32,903 nucleotides of DNA from Paraglomus brasilianum (lineage: Eukaryota), in assembly GCA_910592345.1 (NCBI GenBank), contig CAJVPI010000367.1, forward strand, positions 1 to 32,903. Reading direction: 5' to 3'. Within the stretch, counting starts at the first letter, position 1; each line of letters opens with the position of its first letter. The translations under genes were made by a program, and so were the position numbers. The notes under the pieces were generated by a model, which searched no databases, had not been told where the DNA came from, and saw nothing but the letters and a program-made list of their open reading frames with translations. Positions 1,428 through 29,967 of this stretch are shown piece after piece.

Positions 1428-2372
1428 GTTGCTTTGTGCACAAATGCTGATGGATCTCACAAGTTAAATCCATTAATTATTGGGAAATTTGCAAAGCTGT
1501 GATGCTTTAATAATGTCAATCTCAGCTATTTACCAATGACATATCGCAACAACTCAAAGGCATGGATGTTAACTACATTGTTTCAAAATTGGCTCCAAGA
1601 ATTCGACAAAGAAATTGCTCAAAAATATGGAAACCAGCATGTATTGCTGTTATTTGACAATTGCCTAAGTCACAAAACGGATGGTATGGTCATCTCAAAT
1701 ACTGATGTCCACTTTCTCCCTCCAAACACCACTTCAAAAATTATGCCGGAATTATTATGTCATTCAAAGGGCATTATCGTAACTTGCATATTCGATGGAT
1801 CTTAACCCAAGTTGAAGAAGGAAACGACATAAAAGTTTAAAAATGGATGTATTGCAAACAATACGTTTTATTATTAGAAGCTGGGATGAAATCACACCAG
1901 AAACAATCCGAAACTGTTGGAATCATACGAAAATTCTTCCAACTACAACTACCACCACTGACTCTGATACAACCAATATGCCAATGCTAGGAGAGCTCTC
2001 TCTGATACTTACATCTCTCAACCTTCCTGATACTGTCAATTGAAAAATTTTTGAGTAACCCAGAAGAAGACTAAGTTTATGTAGTTCCTGACAATGAAGA
2101 ACTATTATATAGAAAACAGTCAGATTTAGCAATAGTGAAGAAGCTGATGACAGCATTGAGTCCAAAATAATTAGTGTTAACAAGGCTTCAAAAAGCTTAG
2201 AAATGCAATGAAACAGACTACGATGGATCAATTTTTTAAATAATAAATAACCAATGGTATTTCCTAATTTCACGTGCAATCAATCAAATTCTTACCCTTC
2301 ATAAATGCACACCCTCCATAAATGCACGCCTTCCTCCATTCCCAAGGGTGTGCATTTATGGAGGGTTCACTG
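1428..2372 (+). mobile_element. 5'-truncated pogo/Tigger-type (Tc1/mariner superfamily, DDE_1) transposon remnant with its right TIR
   Basis: VALCTNADGSHKLNPLIIGK, NSKAWM, LLLFDNCLSH, HFLPPNTTSK and SWDEITPETIRNCWNH motifs with stops and frameshifts; the end ...ggtgtgcatttatggagggttcactg|TA is a CAGT-type TIR plus TA target. Confidence 0.9.
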
Positions 2373-7501: not shown

Positions 7502-10475
7502 ATGCTTCCGATCAGAAAACCGAAAGCTAGAAACTTACGCAAGAAAGTCACCGTTGATAACGAAGACGCTGATCCCATATCTGGTATACCTTTCTTTCTC
7601 AGCGTTATCCCTACTCTGCACCACTTGTACTGATTACTCTCCCATTTAACCAGATCAATCTTTGCCACTGTCAACTCCAACAACCCCAGCGACCCCAGCG
7701 ACCCCAGCGACCCCAGCAACCCCAACAAAGAAAACAAAAAAGTCTAAATCACATGTAAAGTTAAGCTTTGGGATTGAAGAGGTAGGATCTTTGCCTCTTT
7801 GTGAATGGTAGATGTTATGTGGTAGGATACATGTCTCGAACGCAAGGAGCGTTGGGATTTTCTGAGGTAGGAGAGGATGTACTGGCTGTTGTCTTAGACG
7901 AAGGGAGTACCATTAAGTGAGAGAGCATAGTGTTGCGATAGATACTTGATCAAGTCACCTTGTTTGGTTCTTCATTGAGAAAGAGACATAGCCTGCATGT
8001 CCCATCAATAATAGGAGTAAATCAAATTAATATATTCTTATTCGGATACTTGCAGGACGAAGGTAGGGAGGTCTATGTATCAAAGGTCCAAGCAAATAGA
8101 CGAACGCCCGATACAAAGTCACGGAAGTTATATCTGGATGTGTGAGTATTTTACTACTCTATTGTGCCAGACTATATACTATGTCTAAATCGCACTAATT
8201 TATTTGATTTACTTAGGCGCTCCTTACCTAAGAATTTGGAGAGTACTACTGAAGCACCAACATATACAAAGGAAATATTGTTTCAATTAAAAGAAAGCAC
8301 ACCAAATACGCCTCCATCATTTACCGAAGATGCTTTGGTTGCAGAGAAATTTCCTTCAAGTATGGGAACAGGTGTGTTTAATGATTTCTGTACTAAATCG
8401 TCAGTCATTTACATTTCGGCGTTTATGCAGAACATATTTCATACAATTATTCACATTACGTACGGATATTTGTGTTTACGTAGGTCCCATAACAGGTATT
8501 CCTGATCCTGCTACAATTCATGCGGCTAAGAAGAAAAGAGAAATGCTGCGACAACGGGCAGCGGGTGGTGCTCCAGAATACATTTCATTATCAGATGAGA
8601 CGGACGTAGGTTTCATGTTCAACTGCGTAAATGTGATATCGCGTTATATTTATTAATAATCTGATTGTCATTTAACATCTTACAGGTTATATCCAGTTCT
8701 GGGAAAAAGTTAGAGTCAAGGTTGGTACGTGAGGAAGATGAAGCAGATGACGTTGACGCTGGTGGGTGTCTTATTATCTCTGTGCAAGTCATATTCGAGT
8801 GTTTTTATAATAGACTGATAGGATCGTTATTAATTAAAAAGACTTTGAAAAGTACGTGTCTGAGAGGTTGCCACTTGGCAAAAAAGCGATGAAAGAGGAA
8901 GAGCAACAACGAAAGGCAGGAATTGAAGAAGCGGTTCAAGAGTTGTAAGTGGGTCTGAATTGGGTTACATCGATTCATCTGGCTTGACAGTTTTATGTCA
9001 ATCGTTTTATTTATAACATCAATATTTTGATTCCCAATTAGCGAATATCAGGGAGAGGAAGATGAGGAGGTATTACAGTGGGAAATGGAAGCCATTAAAA
9101 AGGGTGGTAATGTCAGCAAGATAAAGACACCCAAGAAGTCCCAAGATACACAATTGTACATTCCTGCTCCGAGTATGTAGCGCATAATTGTTCGTAAAAT
9201 CTTTTTTAATACAATATACGACCATACTTACCTGAACATGTTCAACGACTTCAGTACCAGCAATCACACCAATACCGAATATAGCCGATTCCATTGCACG
9301 TCTATCCCAACAGATGGACGATTTCCAAGATGTTCACAAAAATCAACAGTCTGAACTGATACAAATACAAAAGGATTTACAAAACTTGAAATCCTCCAGG
9401 GAAGAATTAGCTAGCCAAATAGAAACAGCAAAAAGAAGCTACAATTATTACCAAGAAATGAAGACATTTGTTGAAAATCTGGCAGAGTTCCTAGACGTTA
9501 AGGTGAGTTTTATTACCAAAGAACGAGTCTAAGTACTAGGCACACCTGTGATGCTAATATTTTCTTTCTTTGGAATGTAATAGCTCCCTTATTTGGAGGA
9601 ACTGGAAAATAAGTTTCACAATTTGTTGATGGATAGATTACAAAGTTTGGCTAAAATACAGACAGATGGCGAGTCTTTTGACTCCGCAATGGAATGTAAA
9701 GGATCCAGTATGTTATACTATGGCATGAATGTCGCAGCGTACAAACAACAGGGGGTAGACATATTGAATGCTATCAATTAATCATTACACTGTTTCTATT
9801 TGTTCTCGGAATCCCTTATGCAAAGCATTTCAGACCAATGATATCTTGCAAAAATTCAAGCACGTAGTTGGTAAGTATGTGCGCTGTGTGAATGATGTGA
9901 ATGCAGATGAGCTTGTGTAATGACGAGATATTCGCCATTGTTCTAACTAGGTGAGATAGAAGTCTCGAAACAGAAGCTGTTTGATGACGTGAGCGATGAT
10001 TTCCGGTCACTTGATAATGTAATGTCCAAGTTCGACGTATGGCGGAGGGAGTTCGAAGAAGACTATGGAAATGCATATGGTGACCTTAGTTTAACGGGAG
10101 TGTTTGAACTTTACGTGAGATATGAATTAATATCGTGGGATCCATTTGACGTACGTATTCGTGGCACATATTTCATATGTTATGAGTAAATGGTGTAATA
10201 CTTATCATGTGCTGTCTATTCATTTGTTTTCCTATCAGCAAACAACTGTTGATCCGATAACTTCTACTAATTGGTATCGGGTTCTTTCTGAATACGGAAC
10301 AACTAATTCTAACAATGCCGACTCAAATGATAGAAAAAGCATTATAATCGGAAAAGTAATAGATAAAATTCTAATTCCAAAAATTAATAGATTAACTGAA
10401 GTATATAAGCCTTATAACCCGGATGTGGCGAACCGCGCTATTGGCCTGACTGACTTGATTAAGTCTATCGTGTAG
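7502..10475 (+). CDS. NTR2: Ntr2 / GCFC2-PAXBP1-like spliceosome-disassembly factor, about 13 exons
   Basis: Manual GT-AG splicing gives MLPIRKPKARNLRKK, KLSFG, IPDPATIHAAKKKREMLRQ, SRLVREEDE, QWEMEAIKKG, YYQEMKTFVENLAEFLDVK and the GCFC core FDDVSDDFRSL..F..WR.....Y..AY.DLSL..VFELYVRYELISWDP; 3' end uncertain. Confidence 0.85.
7676..7726 (+). repeat. Coding 9-bp tandem repeat encoding (T-P-A/T)n in exon 2 of the Ntr2/GCFC gene
   Basis: accccagcg repeats translate as STPTTPATPATPATPATPTKK. Confidence 0.85.
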
Positions 10476-17071: not shown

Positions 17072-17347
17072 ATTTAGTACATGCGAAGCCATTGATCGAA
17101 ATAATCACCCCCACATTCTTTTTTCCCTAGTTTGGTGGTACAGTCAATTTGAGTCGATCGCGTCAGTTTGCATTTTCCCAATAAGTACTCTATGGTCTTG
17201 TTCAGGAAAGCATTTAAATTCGTTTCAACGAAGATACCCCAGTCAGTATTACGAAATTTAGTCACCAATAGTTTCAAGAGCTCGAGGAATCAGAACACCC
17301 AACTTTTATTTACCTGTTATAAAAGACAATTGCATTACACTCTACCC
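17072..17347. promoter_or_regulatory. Probable bidirectional promoter between divergent DPM1 and PCMT1
   Basis: Only 276 bp separate the two predicted start codons (17071 minus, 17348 plus). Confidence 0.55.
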
Positions 17348-18737
17348 ATGGCTTGGTTCTGTTCTGGTACGGAAACCTTGACAAACAAGCAGAAATGCGC
17401 AGTGCTACTTGCTCTCTCCTCATTCTATCTGTCAAATCACTTTCTCCGCCTCTTTCTATAACAGCCAAGGATAACGATGGCCTTATTTCCAACCTCAAGA
17501 GAGCCGGAATAATCGAGTCTGACCGTATCGAAAGGGCAATGAAATCGATTGACCGAGGAAAATACGTCCGCAAGGATCCGTACAGAGACACGCCTCAAAT
17601 ACTGGGGTTTAACGCTACTATATCCGCTCCGTAAATGTTTGATTTCTACTTTTTGCTTTCGTTCGTTTTGCATAGTTTTGATAAATGATGAGTTTTTTTT
17701 GAACAAACTGAATCATACATATCATTGGGAAGACATATGCACGCACATGCCTTGCAGCATTTAGAACCGTTCTTGAAGGAAGGAATGAAAGGTGAGTAGT
17801 TTATATATGGCGTATTTAGATTGTTGTAATTTGGATTATTAACGAAAGTCGCGTGTTTGATCGAAAACTTTTAACTATATAGTGGCACTTGTTTTGATAT
17901 AGTACTAAAATTCATCCTCAACTACTCGCTTTAAATCTAGTTCTCGATGTTGGATCTGGATCAGGGTACTTGACCGCGTGCTTTGCTGAAATGGTAACTA
18001 TTGCTTTTGTATTTTCGTTTGGTAACAATCTTTTTTTCCTTTTTTACTATTGTAATCACTCATAATATCTGATACAAGGTTGGGACGAGTGGCAAAGTAG
18101 TCGGAATAGAGCATATTCCTGAGCTCGTTCAACTTGGTGAACAGAACGTCCGCAATGATAGGCCAGAATTTTTAGATTCTAAGAGACTTAGTTTTGTCTT
18201 GGGTGATGGCAGACAAGGATATCCTGACGAGGCTCCGTACGATTGCATGTACTGTCTCTAACTACATTTCATTGCTTTATTGCATGTGTGTGTGTCGTCT
18301 CGGTGAAGATGGGCGTTATGCTTTCCCAATGTTTACTGAATGTGATACTTCGTTAAGACATGTCGGCGCCGCTGCTCCCACTACACCCAAGGCATTGATC
18401 GATCAATTGAAAGCTCCTGGACGGTATGAGGATCGCGTTATTTGGAGGGAGGGAAGAGAGGAACACTGTTTGATACCCGAGGCACGTATGTAAACTTGTT
18501 TGAAATGATCCACATAGGCTTTTTATCCCTGTCGGAACAGACCATCAAAGTATCCATCAGATCGATAAGGATAAAGACGGCAACATAACAGACAAAGACG
18601 TAATGGGTGTTATGGTAAGGGTTAGGTTCAAGTGTTTTCTTGCTTGGTTGGAGATTTTACAATGATGACTGACCATCTGCACGTATTTTTAGTATGTTCC
18701 ACTTACCGATGCATCTAGCCAACTGCGGACGTTCTGA
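17348..18737 (+). CDS. PCMT1: Protein-L-isoaspartate(D-aspartate) O-methyltransferase, 8 exons
   Basis: MAWFCS, DTPQILGFNATISAPHMHA, VLDVGSGSGYLTACFA, VVGIEHIPEL, GDGRQGYPDEAPYDCIHVGAAA, LIDQLKAPGRLFIPVG, GVMYVPLTD. Confidence 0.96.
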
Positions 18738-23071: not shown

Positions 23072-26000
23072 CTAAAAATCCGGAAGGCTAAGATCAAGTT
23101 GTTTTGAATCTGTTTCAAAATAAATGATAATTTTAATTTTAGCGAGTTAGTAATAAAACCGAGCACAAAATACATACCATAAGTCATATCTACATCTGGA
23201 ACCTCAAGATTGACTTGATTAGAGTCTACGCAACAGATATTGTAAAGGTGTCAGGTTAATAATCGAATTATGTTGCCGACAGTACTAAATTTAAAATAGA
23301 GAGAGAAGTTTACCATACCGTGAACACTTGTAGGTGTTGGGAAATTGTCAAAGTCAAATATTCTACTGGTATAAACAGCTCCAGAATGCGCTGGTTTCTC
23401 TGCGAAATTGGCGCGATTTATCTTTAGTGCAACCCGAGCTCTCTCAAGAGATGGAATGTATTCTTGATCGCGATCTTCATTCCATTTGCTGATAGTACTA
23501 AAAAGTTTGTAAGCGGATGGACGCTTGTCCGGGTCGGCGTCGACGCATTCTTTGTACACGCCAGCATAGAAATCCGGTGTCCAAGGGCTCATTTCCGGTC
23601 TAGCACCTTGGCAAATGTTTCGGGCCAGAGTTATGTTGTGAGCACTGTTCTTGAAAGGGACGTCGATCATTTCAAGCATCCACATTAAGAGACCAAACGC
23701 ATAAATATCTGATTTCTGAAAAAAATAATATAAAATTTAATTTAAAAAAAGGTATAATAAATCGTACGACATAATCCCTGTCGTATTTACTATGCAAATA
23801 TGAACCTAATTGATTGTACTTTTTGAAATACATTATTACAACAACGCGATAGAATGCTATGCGTATGTAATTATATACTGTGACTTCCGTTTTATAGAAA
23901 TACTGCCCTTTCACACACCCGTCATTATATTTGACAAGTACAATCAATTAGCTTCAAAACGATTGCTTACTTGCATAGTAAATACGGATGATAACGACTT
24001 TCGAAATAAAGATTTTTTCCGGCAGGGGAGTGTATATAAAGAATTGTTTTAATATACCTGCGAATATGGCATACCGCGAAGAACCTCTGGGGCAACATAT
24101 GGCATCACACCAAATACTCCCTTATGTTTCTCTGCATCATTTTCGTGAATCGAAAGCCCGTAATCGGTGAGATCTGCATTGTTTTCTCTACTCTCAATAA
24201 GGACATTTCCTCCATGGATATCCCGGTGAATCATTCCCGTTTCGTGGAAATCATACAAACTCTCGACTAGTTGCAAGAGAATCTGCATTTTGCGAGTCCA
24301 TGAAAGGTCTGGATTTTTGCGCAAGTAGGTTGTCAAATCACCGAGATCGGCATAGTCCATAACCAGAACGTGCTTTCCCGTGCTTTTCAAGCGTGATACA
24401 CCCAAAACATGCATCTTTTGCAACCTCAACTTCTGCAGTTCTGAAACCATCGCAGCGCCTACTGTCAACTGTAAGAAAAAAATAATTGAGGATTGTTTCA
24501 TTAACCTGGAATACCGAGATTAAAATTACCTCTTGTAAAAAATCCTGCTCACTATCCTTGATATCAAAAAGAAGTTTGACTGCGACTTTGAGAGGCTCTC
24601 TTCGCACGACACGTTTACCACTGTCATCAAAATCTACGCCCAAATATTTTCCATTTCTCCAGACACCAGAATATACCATCCCGAATCCTCCTTTTCCAAT
24701 CTCGACTAGATCGTCAAGATCGTTTGGTGGAATCCATTGAAGGCAGATATAGTCGTGCCCATCCGCGTCTTTCTGGGTACTTTGGATAACTTGGTCATAC
24801 TTGTCGTTTCCAGTTGTCCAACCTTCCATTAGCTGCTTTCGATCACACTGATTGCACCAAAAGTCTTTATTTGGGTAAGTTGATCCGCAAGTAGAACAGA
24901 AACCATGTGACACGAACGCGTATGCGCCAGTGGATTCAATTCGCGATATCCCATAGAGCGTCAGTTCCTCTAGTGTTCTATAATCCATTTGACAGACGTA
25001 TAACGCTCCTTCCTGCAGCTATTTATCGACAAATGGAAAACATCAATACCTAACAAGAAAACATATAAACTGCGTTCTTTACCAATGTTTAATTACCTCG
25101 CGCAAAAAGTCATCTTCAGATCGATCACTCTTAGCAAGAACTTTGAGAAAAACTTTTGTAGGTTCCCAAATCTCCCGACTTTCACCAGATTCATCATTAC
25201 AAAATCCCTTAAACGATCCATCAAGCCAAGTGGCATAATACAAGGTTCCGAACTCTCTACTGATAATTTCGTTCACATTCTGAATGCGATCGGGGGCAAT
25301 CCATTTGAGACAAGGAAACGGGGTCTTTTCATCCACGTCTTTTTGCGTCTCTTTAAGCAATTCATCATACTTTTCATGCCCACTTGTCCACCCTTCCATT
25401 AATGCTTTTCTCTTACATTCTCTGCACCAGTTCTCATCGCTCAAAAACCAACCACAAGTGTTGCAAACTCCCCCTGACACTATTCCCAATTTATTGGTTT
25501 CAGGTTGTCGTGTAATACCAAAAATACGAAAGATGGTATTACCATATATTCCGGCCCAATCCTTTAGCTAAAAAAAAAATTGAAGTCATAAATAGTGACA
25601 TTGAATTTTCTGCATCTTAATATCTTCGTCTTACCTCTCCGATGCAAGCAACTTCATCTTCAACGATTTTAACCGTGATATTCTGTGGTGTCCACTGAAG
25701 AACGATTCGCTGATTTTCATCAAATTTCCAGTCTTTATATTGCCACTCCAACCATTCCCCAGTATATAGCGTACCAAACGTACGCGTTTCCGTCTCTACC
25801 AAGCTTGCAAGACTATCCCAAGGAATCCATTTGAGACACGCGGTCCTGAAGTCATCAACATCGTTTTGTGATTCTCGGATGATGGCGTTGATTTCCTCAT
25901 TACCGCTGGTCCAACTGAACATTAACCGCTTCGGATCGCATTCTTTACACCATACGTCCTTGGAATCGCCACTGGCACCGTAAAAAATGCCACCACAATT

Positions 26001-28393
26001 TAAACACGCTCCAGAAACTATTAGTGCATACTCTCCGCTTGAATCTGACTTGGAAACGCCCCAAGGTTTCAATTTTGGTTGCCAGTTTGGTAACTTCATT
26101 TGAATACCCCATTCGCTTGTTTTGATAGCTGCAGCAGCACATTCTTTAAGCTAATTAAAAGTCATTTATTATATGTCTACAATATTTAACATGCGCATGA
26201 GATTAAAATACCTCTTTCAAAAATGTCGCTTCATTATTTGCAAAAACTTTTATTATTACACGACAGGTAACCCAGTTGTGGATGATGTAAGAACCGTCGG
26301 TATCTTCACCATTATCGATAGTAAATTTGTATCGGCCATCAACAAAATCGGCTGCGAAAATGCTACCGAAAGAACCTTTTGAGATTTCCATCATGTTCTG
26401 AAGTCGTTTCCAGGGGATCCATCGAAGGCAATGGTATCCATGCCAGTTTTTGTGACGTCCTTTTTCTTGGGACTCCCGTATGACCTTATCGTAGTCGGCA
26501 TTTCCGCTTGTCCAACCCTCTGTCAATTGTTTCCAGTCACAAGTTTTGCACCAAGCATTGTCGTCTGGGTAAAAGACACCACAGGTAGGGCAAGCACGAC
26601 GAGTTATAAGGGCTAATTCTCCCGTAAGTCGTGATACGCCAAAAATCCTTATTTTCGTGACCTGAGGTTTCCGCATACTTTGCGCAAGCTTACGATCATC
26701 CTTCATCCACTTTTCTTTAGAAGCATTCACTCTTTTCAAGGAAAACGCTTCCTGAACTTTACGAACGGCTTCCGCACCATCCTTCAACTGTTATTTAACA
26801 AAAAAAAATGAATGAATAAATAAATAAATAAATAAAACAAATATGTAGACAAGATTTAGAGCACAATTGATATATATTACTTCTTGCAAGATGGTCTTAT
26901 CTGCTTCATTTTGATCGGTCGCAATTGGAACCTTAACTGATACTTTCAATGCTTTTCTGTGGTTGACAATTTTATGCTCGTTATCGAATTCAGTTTTGAA
27001 CCGGACCCAGTCAGCTGTATAGAGCTTGCCAAACTCGCCAGTGCTAATTTCGACAAGATTTTCAAGATGTGCAGGCGATATCCATTGAAGACTTGGGTAA
27101 TAATACGCTGAGTTGTCTTTTCTCTGGGTTTCCTCGATAAGTTTATCGTATTCAGCATTGCCACTAGTCCAACCGTTATAAAGTCCATTGCGTTCGCACT
27201 CATCACACCACTCTGCCGTTTCAGGAAGAGCCTGGCCACATTTAGCGCAAAAATTGCTTGCTACCAATGCCAAAGTTCCCGTAGATTCGACGAGTGTCAT
27301 ACCGTATATAGGCAACCGCAAAGGATTCATAAATTCCGTGCCAGCTTTCAACTACAATCAGTCCAAAAATGAGCATATTTAAATAACCCGTTTTAACAAA
27401 AAAAGCTTATATTACTATCGATCTGAATTAAACTGTATACCTGCCAAAGAAATGAAGAAGTACTAGCCCGGAGTAAGACTCTGATCGTTTTCCAATGCAG
27501 AATGATATCGCGATTCTCGCCTTCAAAATCCCACCCGTCATATTCTCCCTCCGTCCAATCCGCCGCGTAGATGGTCCCAAATTCACCCTTAGATAATTCT
27601 TTGACATTTTCTAGCCGGTAGGAGGGAATCCACCGCAAACAAGGGAACGAGTAAGAGTCTGCACCTTGCTGTGTTTCTCGGATAATGGTATCATATTCGG
27701 CATTTCCGGTAGTCCAATCTTGGTTTACATTACACTTGTCGCACCATGGACCATGGCGCAAGATGCGAGGGTACAACCCGCCACAGGTTTTGCAAAACTT
27801 TTCGGCCACTAGCGCGAGTCGGCCAGTGGATTCTTGGCAGGATACTCCCAAGAGTCGAATGCGCTTTTTACGGTCATTACTACCCATATAAAACCGATCT
27901 GCATTCAATTCTGCATCACCTGTTTTTAGCTAAGGATGGGAGTGTTGATGTTAATTCTGAGACAAGATTGATCATCATCATGCCACGTCGCAAAATTACT
28001 CACCTCATGAAAGAATTCTTCCTCTGCATTGCTTCCCGAGTTCATGAACTTAACTTCAACCCTTAGAGGCTTCCAATTAATCACTCGCTTCCCACTCGGT
28101 TCGAAATGCACACTTTCAAATTGGCCGTCCTTGAAGCTGGCCTTGTAAACCACGCAGAATTCTCCTTTTATGATTTCAACGAGATTCTCTAAGCGATTCC
28201 ACGGAATCCATCGAAGATAGGAGTCGTCATATTCACGTCCGATTTCGTTGCGTTTTATGATTTTATCATAATCCGCGTTTCCAGTCGTCCATCCCTCCAT
28301 GAGCTGTTTGTAGTCACATCCATTTCTGCACCAACCTTTTTTTGAATATATCTTATCACCGCAGGAGTAACAATTAAATTCCTCGTCATCCAT
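23072..28393 (-). CDS. Tyrosine-kinase-like (AMF WTSGN-type) protein kinase, about 1431 aa, with seven tandem Cys4-finger/N-lobe modules and one C-lobe
   Basis: 11 exons: 28393-28004, 27929-27441, 27351-26881, 26787-26212, 26150-25635, 25567-25097, 25018-24530, 24468-24058, 23715-23319, 23225-23178, 23109-23072 = 4296 nt, open to TAG; GKGGFG, VAVK, FLQE, HRDIHGGN, DYG, YVAPE, SDIYAFG and CVDADPDKRP motifs. Confidence 0.9.
24530..25018 (-). repeat. Kinase module exon 7 (phase 0-0), carrying the canonical N-lobe
   Basis: AG|LQEGAL..LYGIS..STGAYAFV..CSTC..WCNQC..GWTTGN..LQWIP..IGKGGFGMVYSG..VAVK..FLQE|GT; 163 codons. Confidence 0.9.
25097..25567 (-). repeat. Kinase module exon 6 (phase 0-0)
   Basis: AG|LKDWAG..IFGIT..TNKLGIV..CNTC..WCREC..GWTSGH..LKWIA..ISREFGTLYYA..VFLK..FLRE|GT; 157 codons. 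Confidence 0.9.
25635..26150 (-). repeat. Kinase module exon 5 (phase 0-0)
   Basis: AG|LKECAA..PWGVS..SGEYALI..CLNC..WCKEC..SWTSGN..LKWIP..ETRTFGTLYTG..ITVK..CIGE|GT; 172 codons. Confidence 0.9.
26212..26787 (-). repeat. Kinase module exon 4 (phase 0-0)
   Basis: AG|LKDGAE..IFGVS..TGELALI..CPTC..WCKTC..GWTSGN..LRWIP..SKGSFGSIFAA..VIIK..FLKE|GT; 192 codons. Confidence 0.9.
26881..27351 (-). repeat. Kinase module exon 3 (phase 0-0)
   Basis: AG|LKAGTE..IYGMT..STGTLALV..CAKC..WCDEC..GWTSGN..LQWIS..STGEFGKLYTA..VSVK..ILQE|GT; 157 codons. Confidence 0.9.
27441..27929 (-). repeat. Kinase module exon 2 (phase 0-0)
   Basis: AG|LKTGDAE..LLGVS..STGRLALV..CKTC..WCDKC..WTTGN..LRWIP..SKGEFGTIYAA..VLLR..FLWQ|GT; 163 codons. 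Confidence 0.9.
28004..28393 (-). repeat. Kinase module exon 1 (Cys4 + WTTGN + degenerate N-lobe)
   Basis: CYSC..WCRNGC..GWTTGN..LRWIP..IIKGEFCVVYKA..VEVK..FFHE|GT; 130 codons. Confidence 0.9.
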
Positions 28394-29170
28394 TTTGAAG
28401 CGACCGTGTCAGCACATTCATGTGTCTTGGAAACATGGTTTAAATATATGCTGCCAGCTTTAATAATATTCAAGTTACCTGAGTGTTACAAATAAAAGAC
28501 GCAAATCACAAAAGAGAAGCATAATAATAAATGTTCTTCAATTCCCAATTTGGTTACGAACGACAGACAGTGTATGTACAGTATTTATCGTAAGGCCGTC
28601 AAAGTTTACTACTCCAAATGATAAGTGTTATGTAATATTTATTCTAAACTCCTATGCCCATTTCAGGCATGTGGTATACCAGGATGCATGGACCCCATTT
28701 CGCTGAGTAAACCAGCCTACTTTCTTCATATTACTTGCTAGAGACAATATAACTTCTAGTTGAGTTGGGATCTGATAACCCTTCGTGCGTTTAAAGTTAT
28801 CACATTCATACAATATTATATCTAATTACTCGAATTATTTCCCATTATTATTATGGCTACCAGTCCATTATTTTTCTTTATCCAATATGCACGAGTTCTA
28901 ATACAGTATTAAATTACGAAAATCGATGGTTTAAGAAGTATGAGAATAAATAAGCGCGTTTATTAATTGTCTTAATAAGCCGATGCTTATATGGGGACTA
29001 CATATTAGTATCCAGCATGCTTATACGATAACATTGGGATTTGTTTTTAAGCTCTTGCGTGTTCTGTATTTTATAAATTCAGCGGCACGCGCGAACGTAA
29101 AATTCTCTAAATGATCACATGACTTAGATTGCTAAATTTGATTTGTTCTTCTTTCCGTTTCCTCAAAAAA

Positions 29171-29967
29171 ATGGAAGAAACATCCAAACAACGTAAAGCA
29201 CGTTTGGAAGCCTTTCGCAAAAGAAAAGCGGAAACCATAACTAACACCGGTGAAGAAAATGAATCAAATGAGAATAGGTACGTTAGCGTAACAGCTATAA
29301 TTCAAGTACGGATGCCTTCGAACTATGCTTTATTCTGAAGATTTCTTCCCTCACTTTTCTCTCTCCACTGATCAACAGTAAAACACTCAGTTTTCGTAAT
29401 TATACACCTTTAAATGAAGATGTAAGAGCAAATTCGATAGTCAAAATAACAAAACCAGAAGACATTGGGGACGATACTGTGGAGAAGACTGCCCAGCAAA
29501 TAGTAATGGAAGTTGAAGTTGAAGAGGAAGCTAAGCAGAAGGAGGATGTGGTATGTTGTGAAGTTGGGACGCGGGGCGGGAACAGGTATCATATCGCGGC
29601 GTTGAATGACATATGCACAGATCAACGATAGTTGTCTACTGCATACGTTAACCACTCTTTTGTCGTCTATAGGATCTATTCAATCTTGCTCCAAGAAAAC
29701 CAAACTGGGACCTAAAACGAGATGTTGAGAAAAAGCTACAAAAGCTCGAGCGTAGAACTCAAGCTAGTATTGCTCAGTTAATACGTGAGTTATTTTGTAC
29801 ACTCTCTTACTTGATTTTATTATAGTTATTCCTTTTTCCCACTTCCTAACTCTAATTTATTTATATTAGGAATGCGTCTACAGGGTGAGTCAGAGTCAAC
29901 GACTGATCTAGCTGATGCTGTTAGAGCTACTGAGAAAGGGGCCGAATCTGAAAACGAATCGGATTAG
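29171..29967 (+). CDS. cwf18: Cwf18 / CCDC12 pre-mRNA splicing factor, 4 exons
   Basis: RKARLEAFRKRK, LSFRNYTP, DLFNLAPRKPNWDLKRDVEKKLQKLERRTQ..IAQLIR.RL; GT-AG introns; TAG at 29965-29967. Confidence 0.93.

What the first reader, a model, noticed from the sequence alone, without database searches (positions are those of the whole stretch)
24058..28003. All module exons are symmetric phase 0-0 cassettes cut at the alphaC glutamate, a potential N-lobe-swapping splice system
Seen: seven introns (74, 89, 93, 61, 67, 78, 61 nt) sit at the identical homologous position. Every donor follows E/Q (FFHE, FLWQ, ILQE, FLKE, CIGE, FLRE, FLQE) and every acceptor precedes L (LKTG, LKAG, LKDG, LKEC, LKDW, LQEG, LTVG). 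Any donor joined to any downstream acceptor is therefore in frame and structurally in register. Splicing exon k to the exon 8 acceptor (24468) would put N-lobe k on the catalytic lobe, and six skippable exons allow up to 64 isoforms. Inference: combinatorial isoform diversity, or at least easy module gain and loss by unequal crossover. Caveat: such short introns usually favour constitutive splicing in fungi.
Basis: partly seen in the sequence, partly recalled or inferred. Interest (0 to 1): 0.75.

Follow-up and report, generated by a model that had tools for sequence, protein, structure and literature searches.

The report
Fungal kinase with seven tandem N-lobes
A gene from a likely mycorrhizal fungus encodes a protein kinase whose front half is repeated seven times, and its matching in-frame exons are most likely a by-product of copying a segment that already held an intron, not a splice-swapping system.

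Summary
In detail: seven GT-AG introns (74, 89, 93, 61, 67, 78, 61 nt), all phase 0, at the same alphaC position. The splice-system reading is not supported. The same phase-0 donor follows 78 of 79 module ends in related contigs and 23 of 25 single-module kinases, so it is a family-wide intron copied along with each repeat. It cuts alphaC mid-helix, so each cassette holds halves of two N-lobes; skipping would give chimeric lobes, not whole swapped ones. Shallow RNA contigs gave 6 records bridging a module intron, all between adjacent exons, which is weak evidence against rare skipping. The seven modules are old (46-54% nucleotide identity), position-specific and under purifying selection, and 9 of 9 close relatives keep the order. 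Gain and loss is real elsewhere in the family: up to 11 repeats, some recent. What is unusual is the protein: six predicted N-lobe/zinc-knuckle repeats with degenerate glycine loops ahead of one intact kinase. This repeat is widespread in Glomeromycota, has no Pfam model, and was not found in ten literature searches.

The parts
28004..28393 (-). Exon 1: predicted start codon, zinc knuckle 1, WTTGN helix, beta1-beta3 and first half of alphaC of N-lobe 1
   Evidence: RNA contig in X1 covers 28134-28474 with no differences
27930..28003 (-). Intron 1, 74 nt, phase 0
   Evidence: same donor in L001 and L003; not bridged by RNA
27441..27929 (-). Exon 2 (489 nt): end of N-lobe 1, zinc knuckle 2, start of N-lobe 2 (beta3 Lys is Arg, alphaC Glu is Gln)
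27352..27440 (-). Intron 2, 89 nt, phase 0
   Evidence: joint in X3 with a short side of 30 nt
26881..27351 (-). Exon 3 (471 nt): end of N-lobe 2, zinc knuckle 3, start of N-lobe 3
26788..26880 (-). Intron 3, 93 nt, phase 0
   Evidence: same donor in L010; not bridged by RNA
26212..26787 (-). Exon 4 (576 nt): end of N-lobe 3 with a long insertion after alphaC, zinc knuckle 4, start of N-lobe 4 (best-kept upstream glycine loop, SKGSFG)
26151..26211 (-). Intron 4, 61 nt, phase 0
   Evidence: joint in X3 (side 22 nt) and, in a variant copy, X5
25635..26150 (-). Exon 5 (516 nt): end of N-lobe 4, zinc knuckle 5, start of N-lobe 5
25568..25634 (-). Intron 5, 67 nt, phase 0
   Evidence: joints in X1 (side 60) and X2 (side 109), two studies
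25097..25567 (-). Exon 6 (471 nt): end of N-lobe 5, zinc knuckle 6, start of N-lobe 6
25019..25096 (-). Intron 6, 78 nt, phase 0
   Evidence: same donor in L004-L007 and L014; not bridged by RNA
24530..25018 (-). Exon 7 (489 nt): end of N-lobe 6, zinc knuckle 7, catalytic N-lobe start with intact GKGGFG, VAVK and alphaC Glu
24469..24529 (-). Intron 7, 61 nt, phase 0; a second AG lies 7 nt downstream (24463-24462)
   Evidence: one X6 contig joins 24530 to 24461
24058..24468 (-). Exon 8: end of catalytic N-lobe, hinge, C-lobe with HRD, DYG and APE motifs
   Evidence: Pfam Pkinase 2.3e-19 and PK_Tyr_Ser-Thr 4.7e-16
23716..24057 (-). Intron 8, 342 nt, phase 0, holding a roughly 205-nt inverted-repeat insertion (23782-23986)
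23319..23715 (-). Exon 9: rest of the C-lobe and tail
   Evidence: Pfam PK_Tyr_Ser-Thr 3.9e-7
23178..23225 (-). Exon 10, predicted tail exon
   Evidence: open frame in gene model; no RNA joint seen
23072..23109 (-). Exon 11, predicted last coding exon with stop
   Evidence: open frame in gene model; no RNA joint seen

Best explanation
This is a tyrosine-kinase-like gene of a likely Glomeromycota fungus in which a segment holding one ancestral phase-0 intron was most likely duplicated in tandem long ago, giving a probably constitutively spliced mRNA for one intact kinase preceded by six predicted N-lobe/zinc-knuckle repeats that likely cannot bind ATP. Shown: the exon layout; the same intron in single-module relatives; position-specific modules under purifying selection; adjacent splicing at four introns; loss of the glycine loop in non-terminal repeats across the family. 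Inferred: (1) the first duplication had breakpoints inside exons, because the beta5-to-zinc-knuckle junction inside each cassette does not exist in single-module genes; later copies arose by unequal exchange, and in this gene the array then stopped changing; (2) splicing is mostly constitutive; (3) the repeats work as a non-catalytic regulatory arm, a binding or decoy surface that controls the terminal kinase (about 0.45 for this functional step; a purely structural spacer or an autoinhibitory arm are the alternatives).
For: GT follows the module end in phase 0 in 78 of 79 testable module ends among 80 loci and in 23 of 25 single-module kinases. In an AlphaFold model of an R. irregularis relative (pLDDT 87, pTM 0.81) the internal repeat has the same order of strands and helix as the terminal N-lobe, and the Glu before the intron lies inside the helix (residue 194 in 188-199, 352 in 346-357). 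Modules share 46-54% nucleotides and no exact run above 15 nt. They form seven clades by position, and dN/dS is 0.10-0.22 at dS 0.8-2.1 in 17 comparisons. 9 of 9 close multi-exon loci keep the order. 6 of 6 bridging RNA records join adjacent exons. GxGxF is present in 20 of 29 terminal and 2 of 92 internal modules. A preprint states that intron retention is the commonest and exon skipping the rarest splice variant in fungi (10.64898/2026.05.18.725946, passages).
Against: The RNA data are low-depth contigs (depth 2-14 at the joints), three runs are only guessed to be RNA, two joints have short sides (22 and 30 nt), and contigs drop rare forms, so rare or conditional skipping is untested. One X6 contig uses an acceptor 7 nt downstream of the predicted one at intron 7, so acceptor choice there may be loose. 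No relative's contig spans all seven modules. The fold is of a relative, not of this protein. L017 has two modules and no intron at this site. Nothing here tests the function of the repeats.
Confidence: 0.72

Rival explanations
1. Regulated exon skipping makes isoforms with different repeat arrays and chimeric catalytic N-lobes.
For: All joins are in frame and in register. Most upstream modules keep the beta3 Lys (5 of 6) and the alphaC Glu (5 of 6), and module 4 keeps SKGSFG. The RNA data are too shallow to exclude it.
Against: 0 of 6 bridging records skip. The intron is family-wide. The cut is mid-helix, so products are chimeras of lobes 32-44% identical whose alphaC-to-beta4 stretch ranges from 17 to 50 residues. 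All six upstream glycine loops lack the first Gly. Introns are 61-93 nt, and no strong paired inverted repeat links module introns.
Confidence: 0.07
2. The array is an actively expanding and contracting repeat (unequal crossover), so isolates or nuclei differ in module number.
For: In the wider family, repeat number runs from 1 to 11; 16 of 108 multi-repeat proteins have a repeat pair at least 80% identical, and L065 holds a 575-nt tandem unit 93% identical. L002 carries a decayed partial duplicate in front of an exon 1 that is 98.5% identical to the window's (that contig is chimeric).
Against: In this gene the modules are about 50% identical with no long exact tract, cluster by position and keep their order in 9 of 9 relatives, including a 98.8% identical copy across exons 5-8.
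Confidence: 0.1
3. The upstream N-lobes take turns completing the single C-lobe at the protein level (domain swapping in cis or trans), with no alternative splicing.
For: The internal repeat is predicted to be a complete N-lobe and most window repeats keep the Lys/Glu pair.
Against: Glycine loops are degenerate in 90 of 92 internal modules; the hinge of each internal lobe runs straight into a zinc knuckle; the high pTM suggests a fixed arrangement.
Confidence: 0.04
4. The repeats are non-functional leftovers of duplication or a mis-joined gene model.
For: Several relatives carry stops or frameshifts (L001, L008, L014), and three module introns have no RNA bridge.
Against: Open frame over 1,431 codons, dN/dS 0.10-0.22 in every module, spliced transcripts in several studies.
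Confidence: 0.04

Closest known systems
Expanded PF07714 (protein tyrosine kinase-like) family of arbuscular mycorrhizal fungi (PMC6123716, passages read)
   Same: PF07714/PF00069 catalytic domain; named relatives are from Rhizophagus, Acaulospora, Gigaspora, Scutellospora and Ambispora; same alphaC intron.
   Different: The passages read mention the expansion only, not tandem N-lobe repeats; Pfam gives no consistent family for the repeat. This seven-module subfamily was found only as metagenome fragments.
[quoted passage not shown]
   Same: An array of same-phase exons explained by clonal duplication of one exon/intron unit and unequal crossing over.
   Different: Here the unit is 471-576 nt, variable in length, old and position-specific, and is made of kinase N-lobe halves rather than LRRs.
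Symmetric-exon modules and exon shuffling (PMC3632108, passages read)
   Same: Successive symmetric exons that are homologous and arose by internal tandem duplication.
   Different: The intron sits inside a folded domain (mid-alphaC), so the exon is not a self-contained module.
Tandem kinase arrangements: JAK pseudokinase-kinase and EGFR kinase-domain duplication (both among the structure hits); plant tandem kinase proteins (recalled)
   Same: A catalytically impaired kinase-derived part lies in front of an active kinase and is likely regulatory.
   Different: Those repeat whole two-lobed domains; here only the N-lobe plus a zinc knuckle is repeated, six extra times.
Dscam-type combinatorial splicing of duplicated exons (recalled)
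   Same: Tandem homologous exons with compatible phase.
   Different: There the duplicates are alternatives; here adjacent duplicates are seen joined together, the introns are tiny and no skipping was seen.

Membership tests
Eukaryotic protein kinase, PF07714/PF00069 (TK/TKL-like) | Profile match above the curated cut-off | tested here: met
   Exon 8 scores 70.2 bits (cut-off 31.7) and 59.3 bits (cut-off 23.1)
Eukaryotic protein kinase, PF07714/PF00069 (TK/TKL-like) | Catalytic motifs: glycine loop, beta3 Lys, alphaC Glu, HRD..N, DxG, APE | tested here: met
   GKGGFG, VAVK, FLQE, HRDIHGGN, DYG and APE in exons 7-8; activity itself not tested
Glomeromycota expanded kinases | Closest named relatives are Glomeromycota and share the zinc knuckle/WTSGN/N-lobe head and the alphaC intron | tested here: met
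   the host species is not identified
Symmetric-exon (shuffled) modules | Flanking introns of the same phase | tested here: met
Symmetric-exon (shuffled) modules | Exon borders coincide with domain borders | tested here: not met
   The border falls inside alphaC and beta4-beta5 lie in the next exon
Symmetric-exon (shuffled) modules | Module inserted into unrelated proteins | not tested
   Only kinase-family contexts were examined
Combinatorial or mutually exclusive splicing systems (Dscam type) | Non-adjacent junctions in mRNA | tested here: inconclusive
   0 of 6 bridging records, but shallow contigs only
Combinatorial or mutually exclusive splicing systems (Dscam type) | Duplicated exons exclude one another | tested here: not met
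   Exons 4-5 and 5-6 are joined to each other in several runs, 2-3 in one
Tandem kinase / pseudokinase-kinase proteins | Two complete two-lobed kinase domains | tested here: not met
   One C-lobe only; exons 1-6 give no kinase profile hit
Actively turning-over exon arrays (Tetrahymena LRR type) | Near-identical units of uniform length with variable copy number | tested here: not met
   Units 471-576 nt, 46-54% identical, order kept in 9 of 9 relatives; met by some distant relatives

The most novel reading that the evidence does not exclude
The kinase N-lobe has become a free-standing repeat unit in mycorrhizal fungi, and in this gene condition-dependent exon skipping also rewrites the array and builds chimeric catalytic N-lobes (for example exon 4 to exon 8), giving a tunable sensor kinase from one locus.
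Probability: 0.07. Interest if true: 0.8.

Novelty: new variant of a known kind. Interest (0 to 1): 0.4.

Why it matters
The splice pattern itself is ordinary: it is what tandem duplication of an intron-bearing segment produces. The architecture it exposes is less so. Kinase N-lobes normally come paired with a C-lobe; here they are a repeat unit, with up to 11 copies, in one of the most expanded gene families of arbuscular mycorrhizal fungi, and they are invisible to Pfam. Repeats that keep the fold but lose the ATP loop are a concrete, testable candidate for the input side of these poorly understood kinases. This subfamily adds a stable seven-module array with each position separately conserved.

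Tried and rejected
No whole genome is held for the window, so paralogs in the same assembly were not counted. A word-based search with exon 7 for longer proteins found none among 346 candidates, and exon 8 found one distant hit; weak negatives, since the profile search found 2,277 clusters. The module profile found nothing significant among solved structures by sequence (best E 0.12). A single-sequence fold of L017 failed (pLDDT 34) and was not used. Fold searches with the good model were filled by the catalytic domain, so the internal repeat was not independently matched to a solved N-lobe; that assignment rests on sequence homology to the terminal lobe and on the model's secondary structure. 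BLASTP of exon 6 against exon 8 gave no alignment; the short beta4-beta5 match was shown by local alignment with shuffles instead. Five other RNA joints (25731-25805, 27095-27224, 27592-27730, 27894-28358, 28217-26545) do not use module splice sites and were set aside as paralog matches. A first glycine-loop count misclassified some last modules and was redone (13 ambiguous last modules left out). L044 was counted as two modules by profile but reads as two tandem single-module genes. Absence of RNA cover on introns 1, 3 and 6 is not taken as evidence. Look-ups of earlier findings by place and by sequence returned nothing.
Full report
Observation. The finding lies in a minus-strand gene from 28393 to 23072. 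With three predicted tail exons the frame gives 1,431 aa. Exons 8-9 match Pkinase and PK_Tyr_Ser-Thr; exons 1-6 give only weak zinc-ribbon scores below cut-off. The gene is expressed and spliced: in seven runs laid (all assembled contigs, three only guessed to be RNA), joints fall on intron 5 in X1 and X2, intron 4 in X3, intron 2 in X3 and intron 7 in X6. The X5 joint with 37 letters between reads, by my inspection, as the exon 4-5 junction of a variant copy with three extra codons.

Host. Named relatives of the repeat come from Rhizophagus, Acaulospora, Gigaspora, Scutellospora and Ambispora. The best of two hits of a neighbouring methyltransferase exon is Entrophospora, 63%, and atlas clusters are mostly Mucoromycota. 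A Glomeromycota fungus is therefore likely; the species is not identified, and the closest homologs of this subfamily are unnamed metagenome fragments.

What the repeat is. Each unit is a CxxC..CxxC knuckle, a WT[ST]GN-led helix, and then the strands and helix of a kinase N-lobe (element names from general kinase knowledge). A 58-row AlphaFold model of an R. irregularis relative (pLDDT 87, pTM 0.81) gives the internal repeat the same order of elements as the terminal N-lobe, the two align in sequence, and the terminal domain matches receptor tyrosine kinases (Z 29.6, rmsd 2.5, 280 aligned). The window protein thus has seven N-lobes and one C-lobe. Only the seventh has GxGGFG; the six others lack the first glycine, though five keep the beta3 Lys and five the alphaC Glu. 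Across 44 relatives with a C-lobe, GxGxF is in 20 of 29 terminal and 2 of 92 internal modules, with 13 ambiguous last modules and 2 proteins without a countable module left out. The profile finds 2,277 clusters at E up to 0.001; 108 of the best 150 have two or more well-covered repeats, up to 11. This ranking favours repeat-rich proteins, so it is not a family-wide frequency. Pfam has no consistent model for the repeat.

Why the exons are symmetric. In 80 related loci, 79 module ends could be placed by alignment, and 78 are followed directly by GT in phase 0; the exception, L017, has no intron there. Among 25 loci that read as single-module kinases, the donor was found after the alphaC Glu in 23 and not located in 2. 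The intron is therefore ancestral to the family. Any tandem copy of a segment that spans it puts one same-phase intron at the same position in every repeat. The intron cuts alphaC in the middle, and the first 17-50 residues of each cassette up to beta4 belong to the previous N-lobe. The junction from beta5 into a zinc knuckle lies inside the exon and is absent from single-module genes, so the first duplication cannot have been an intron-to-intron exon copy (inference). L002 shows such an event in small: remnants of the exon 1 end and exon 2 start sit in front of an exon 1 that is 98.5% identical to the window's, with an exon-internal breakpoint, although the contig is chimeric beyond base 526.

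Splicing. All 6 records that bridge a module intron join adjacent exons; none skips. This is weak: depth at the joints is 2-14, two sides are 22 and 30 nt, introns 1, 3 and 6 are unbridged, and contigs drop rare forms. It does rule out mutual exclusion of exons 4, 5 and 6. One result runs against a tidy picture: the only intron-7 record (X6, depth 2.15) uses an AG 7 nt downstream, which in the window sequence puts a stop directly after exon 7; that record has 11 differences on the exon 8 side and 1 on the exon 7 side, so it may be a paralog, and the +7 AG is not kept in L005-L007. I cannot explain it further. A fungal gene-prediction preprint lists exon skipping last among splice variants in fungi (10.64898/2026.05.18.725946, passages). 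If skipping did occur, it would join halves of lobes 32-44% identical and usually put a degenerate glycine loop on the C-lobe; module 4 is the least damaged.

Gain and loss. The window's modules share 46-54% of nucleotides and no exact run above 15 nt, a poor substrate for unequal crossover now (inference). Nine close loci with two or more exons all keep the order, and together they cover all seven neighbour pairs, but none spans the array. In a tree of 26 rows the modules group into seven clades by position with bootstrap 100. dN/dS is 0.10-0.22 at dS 0.8-2.1 in 17 of 20 comparisons; the three left out are two near-identical exons and the chimeric L002, and dS is near saturation, so the ratios are rough. 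In other branches the array is still turning over: 16 of 108 proteins have a repeat pair at least 80% identical and L065 holds a 93% identical 575-nt unit.

Mechanism. Most likely one main mRNA encodes an intact kinase with an N-terminal arm of six zinc-knuckle/N-lobe units that cannot bind ATP. Position-specific conservation says each unit matters in its place. I favour a regulatory binding or decoy arm, by analogy with pseudokinase-kinase tandems such as JAK (analogy recalled; JAK structures appear among the hits). This functional step is untested.

Comparison with what is known. The kinase family and its expansion are known (PMC6123716, passages). Same-phase exon arrays from tandem duplication are known (PMC6564038 and PMC3632108, passages). 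An earlier unchecked note on a different fungal gene reached the same kind of conclusion for LRR exons. I found no description of tandem N-lobe repeats in ten searches (listings only, apart from the four papers named). The library lacks most subscription papers, and no supplements were read; the AM fungal genome papers' supplements could describe the repeat.

Verdict. Observation confirmed; splice-swapping not supported; the exon symmetry is explained. The remaining interest is the N-lobe repeat architecture: a new variant of a known kind, interest 0.4.

Noticed in passing
window 23782-23986 (inside intron 8): Two nested inverted repeats, each 95% complementary, form a long hairpin (z -5.9). 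It looks like a MITE-type insertion and would explain why this intron is 342 nt while the relative L007 has about 88 nt.
   Followed up: partly
window 24461-24468: Second AG 7 nt after the intron 7 acceptor, used by one X6 contig; in the window sequence it gives an immediate stop and a product without a C-lobe.
   Followed up: partly
L002:1-526: Decayed partial tandem duplicate (exon 1 end, exon 2 start) in front of a near-identical exon 1; the contig turns to GC-rich, unrelated sequence after base 526.
   Followed up: partly
L017:30-1919: Two-module kinase in one open frame with no intron at alphaC: either a transcript contig or an intron-less gene.
   Followed up: partly
P0001 (Acaulospora protein, not in the window): Near-identical repeats that differ most in the segment between beta5 and the zinc knuckle, as a diversifying recognition repeat might (by eye).
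   Followed up: no
P0154 / P0155 (R. irregularis proteins): The only internal modules with an intact GxGxF (module 3 of 5), suggesting a former terminal lobe left inside the array.
   Followed up: no
window 1503-1805 +: DDE_1 transposase fragment (Pfam 6.2e-16).
   Followed up: no
window 9236-10475 +: Ntr2/GCFC-type splicing factor gene (NTR2 1.2e-5, GCFC 1.7e-4, both under cut-off); a weak cwf18 match lies at 29287-29631 + (8.6e-4).
   Followed up: no
window 17347-18500 +: Protein-L-isoaspartate O-methyltransferase gene (PCMT 1.5e-11), used to place the lineage.
   Followed up: partly
L001, L006, L008, L014: Close relatives of the gene with stops or frame breaks in module exons; pseudogenes or assembly errors.
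   Followed up: no
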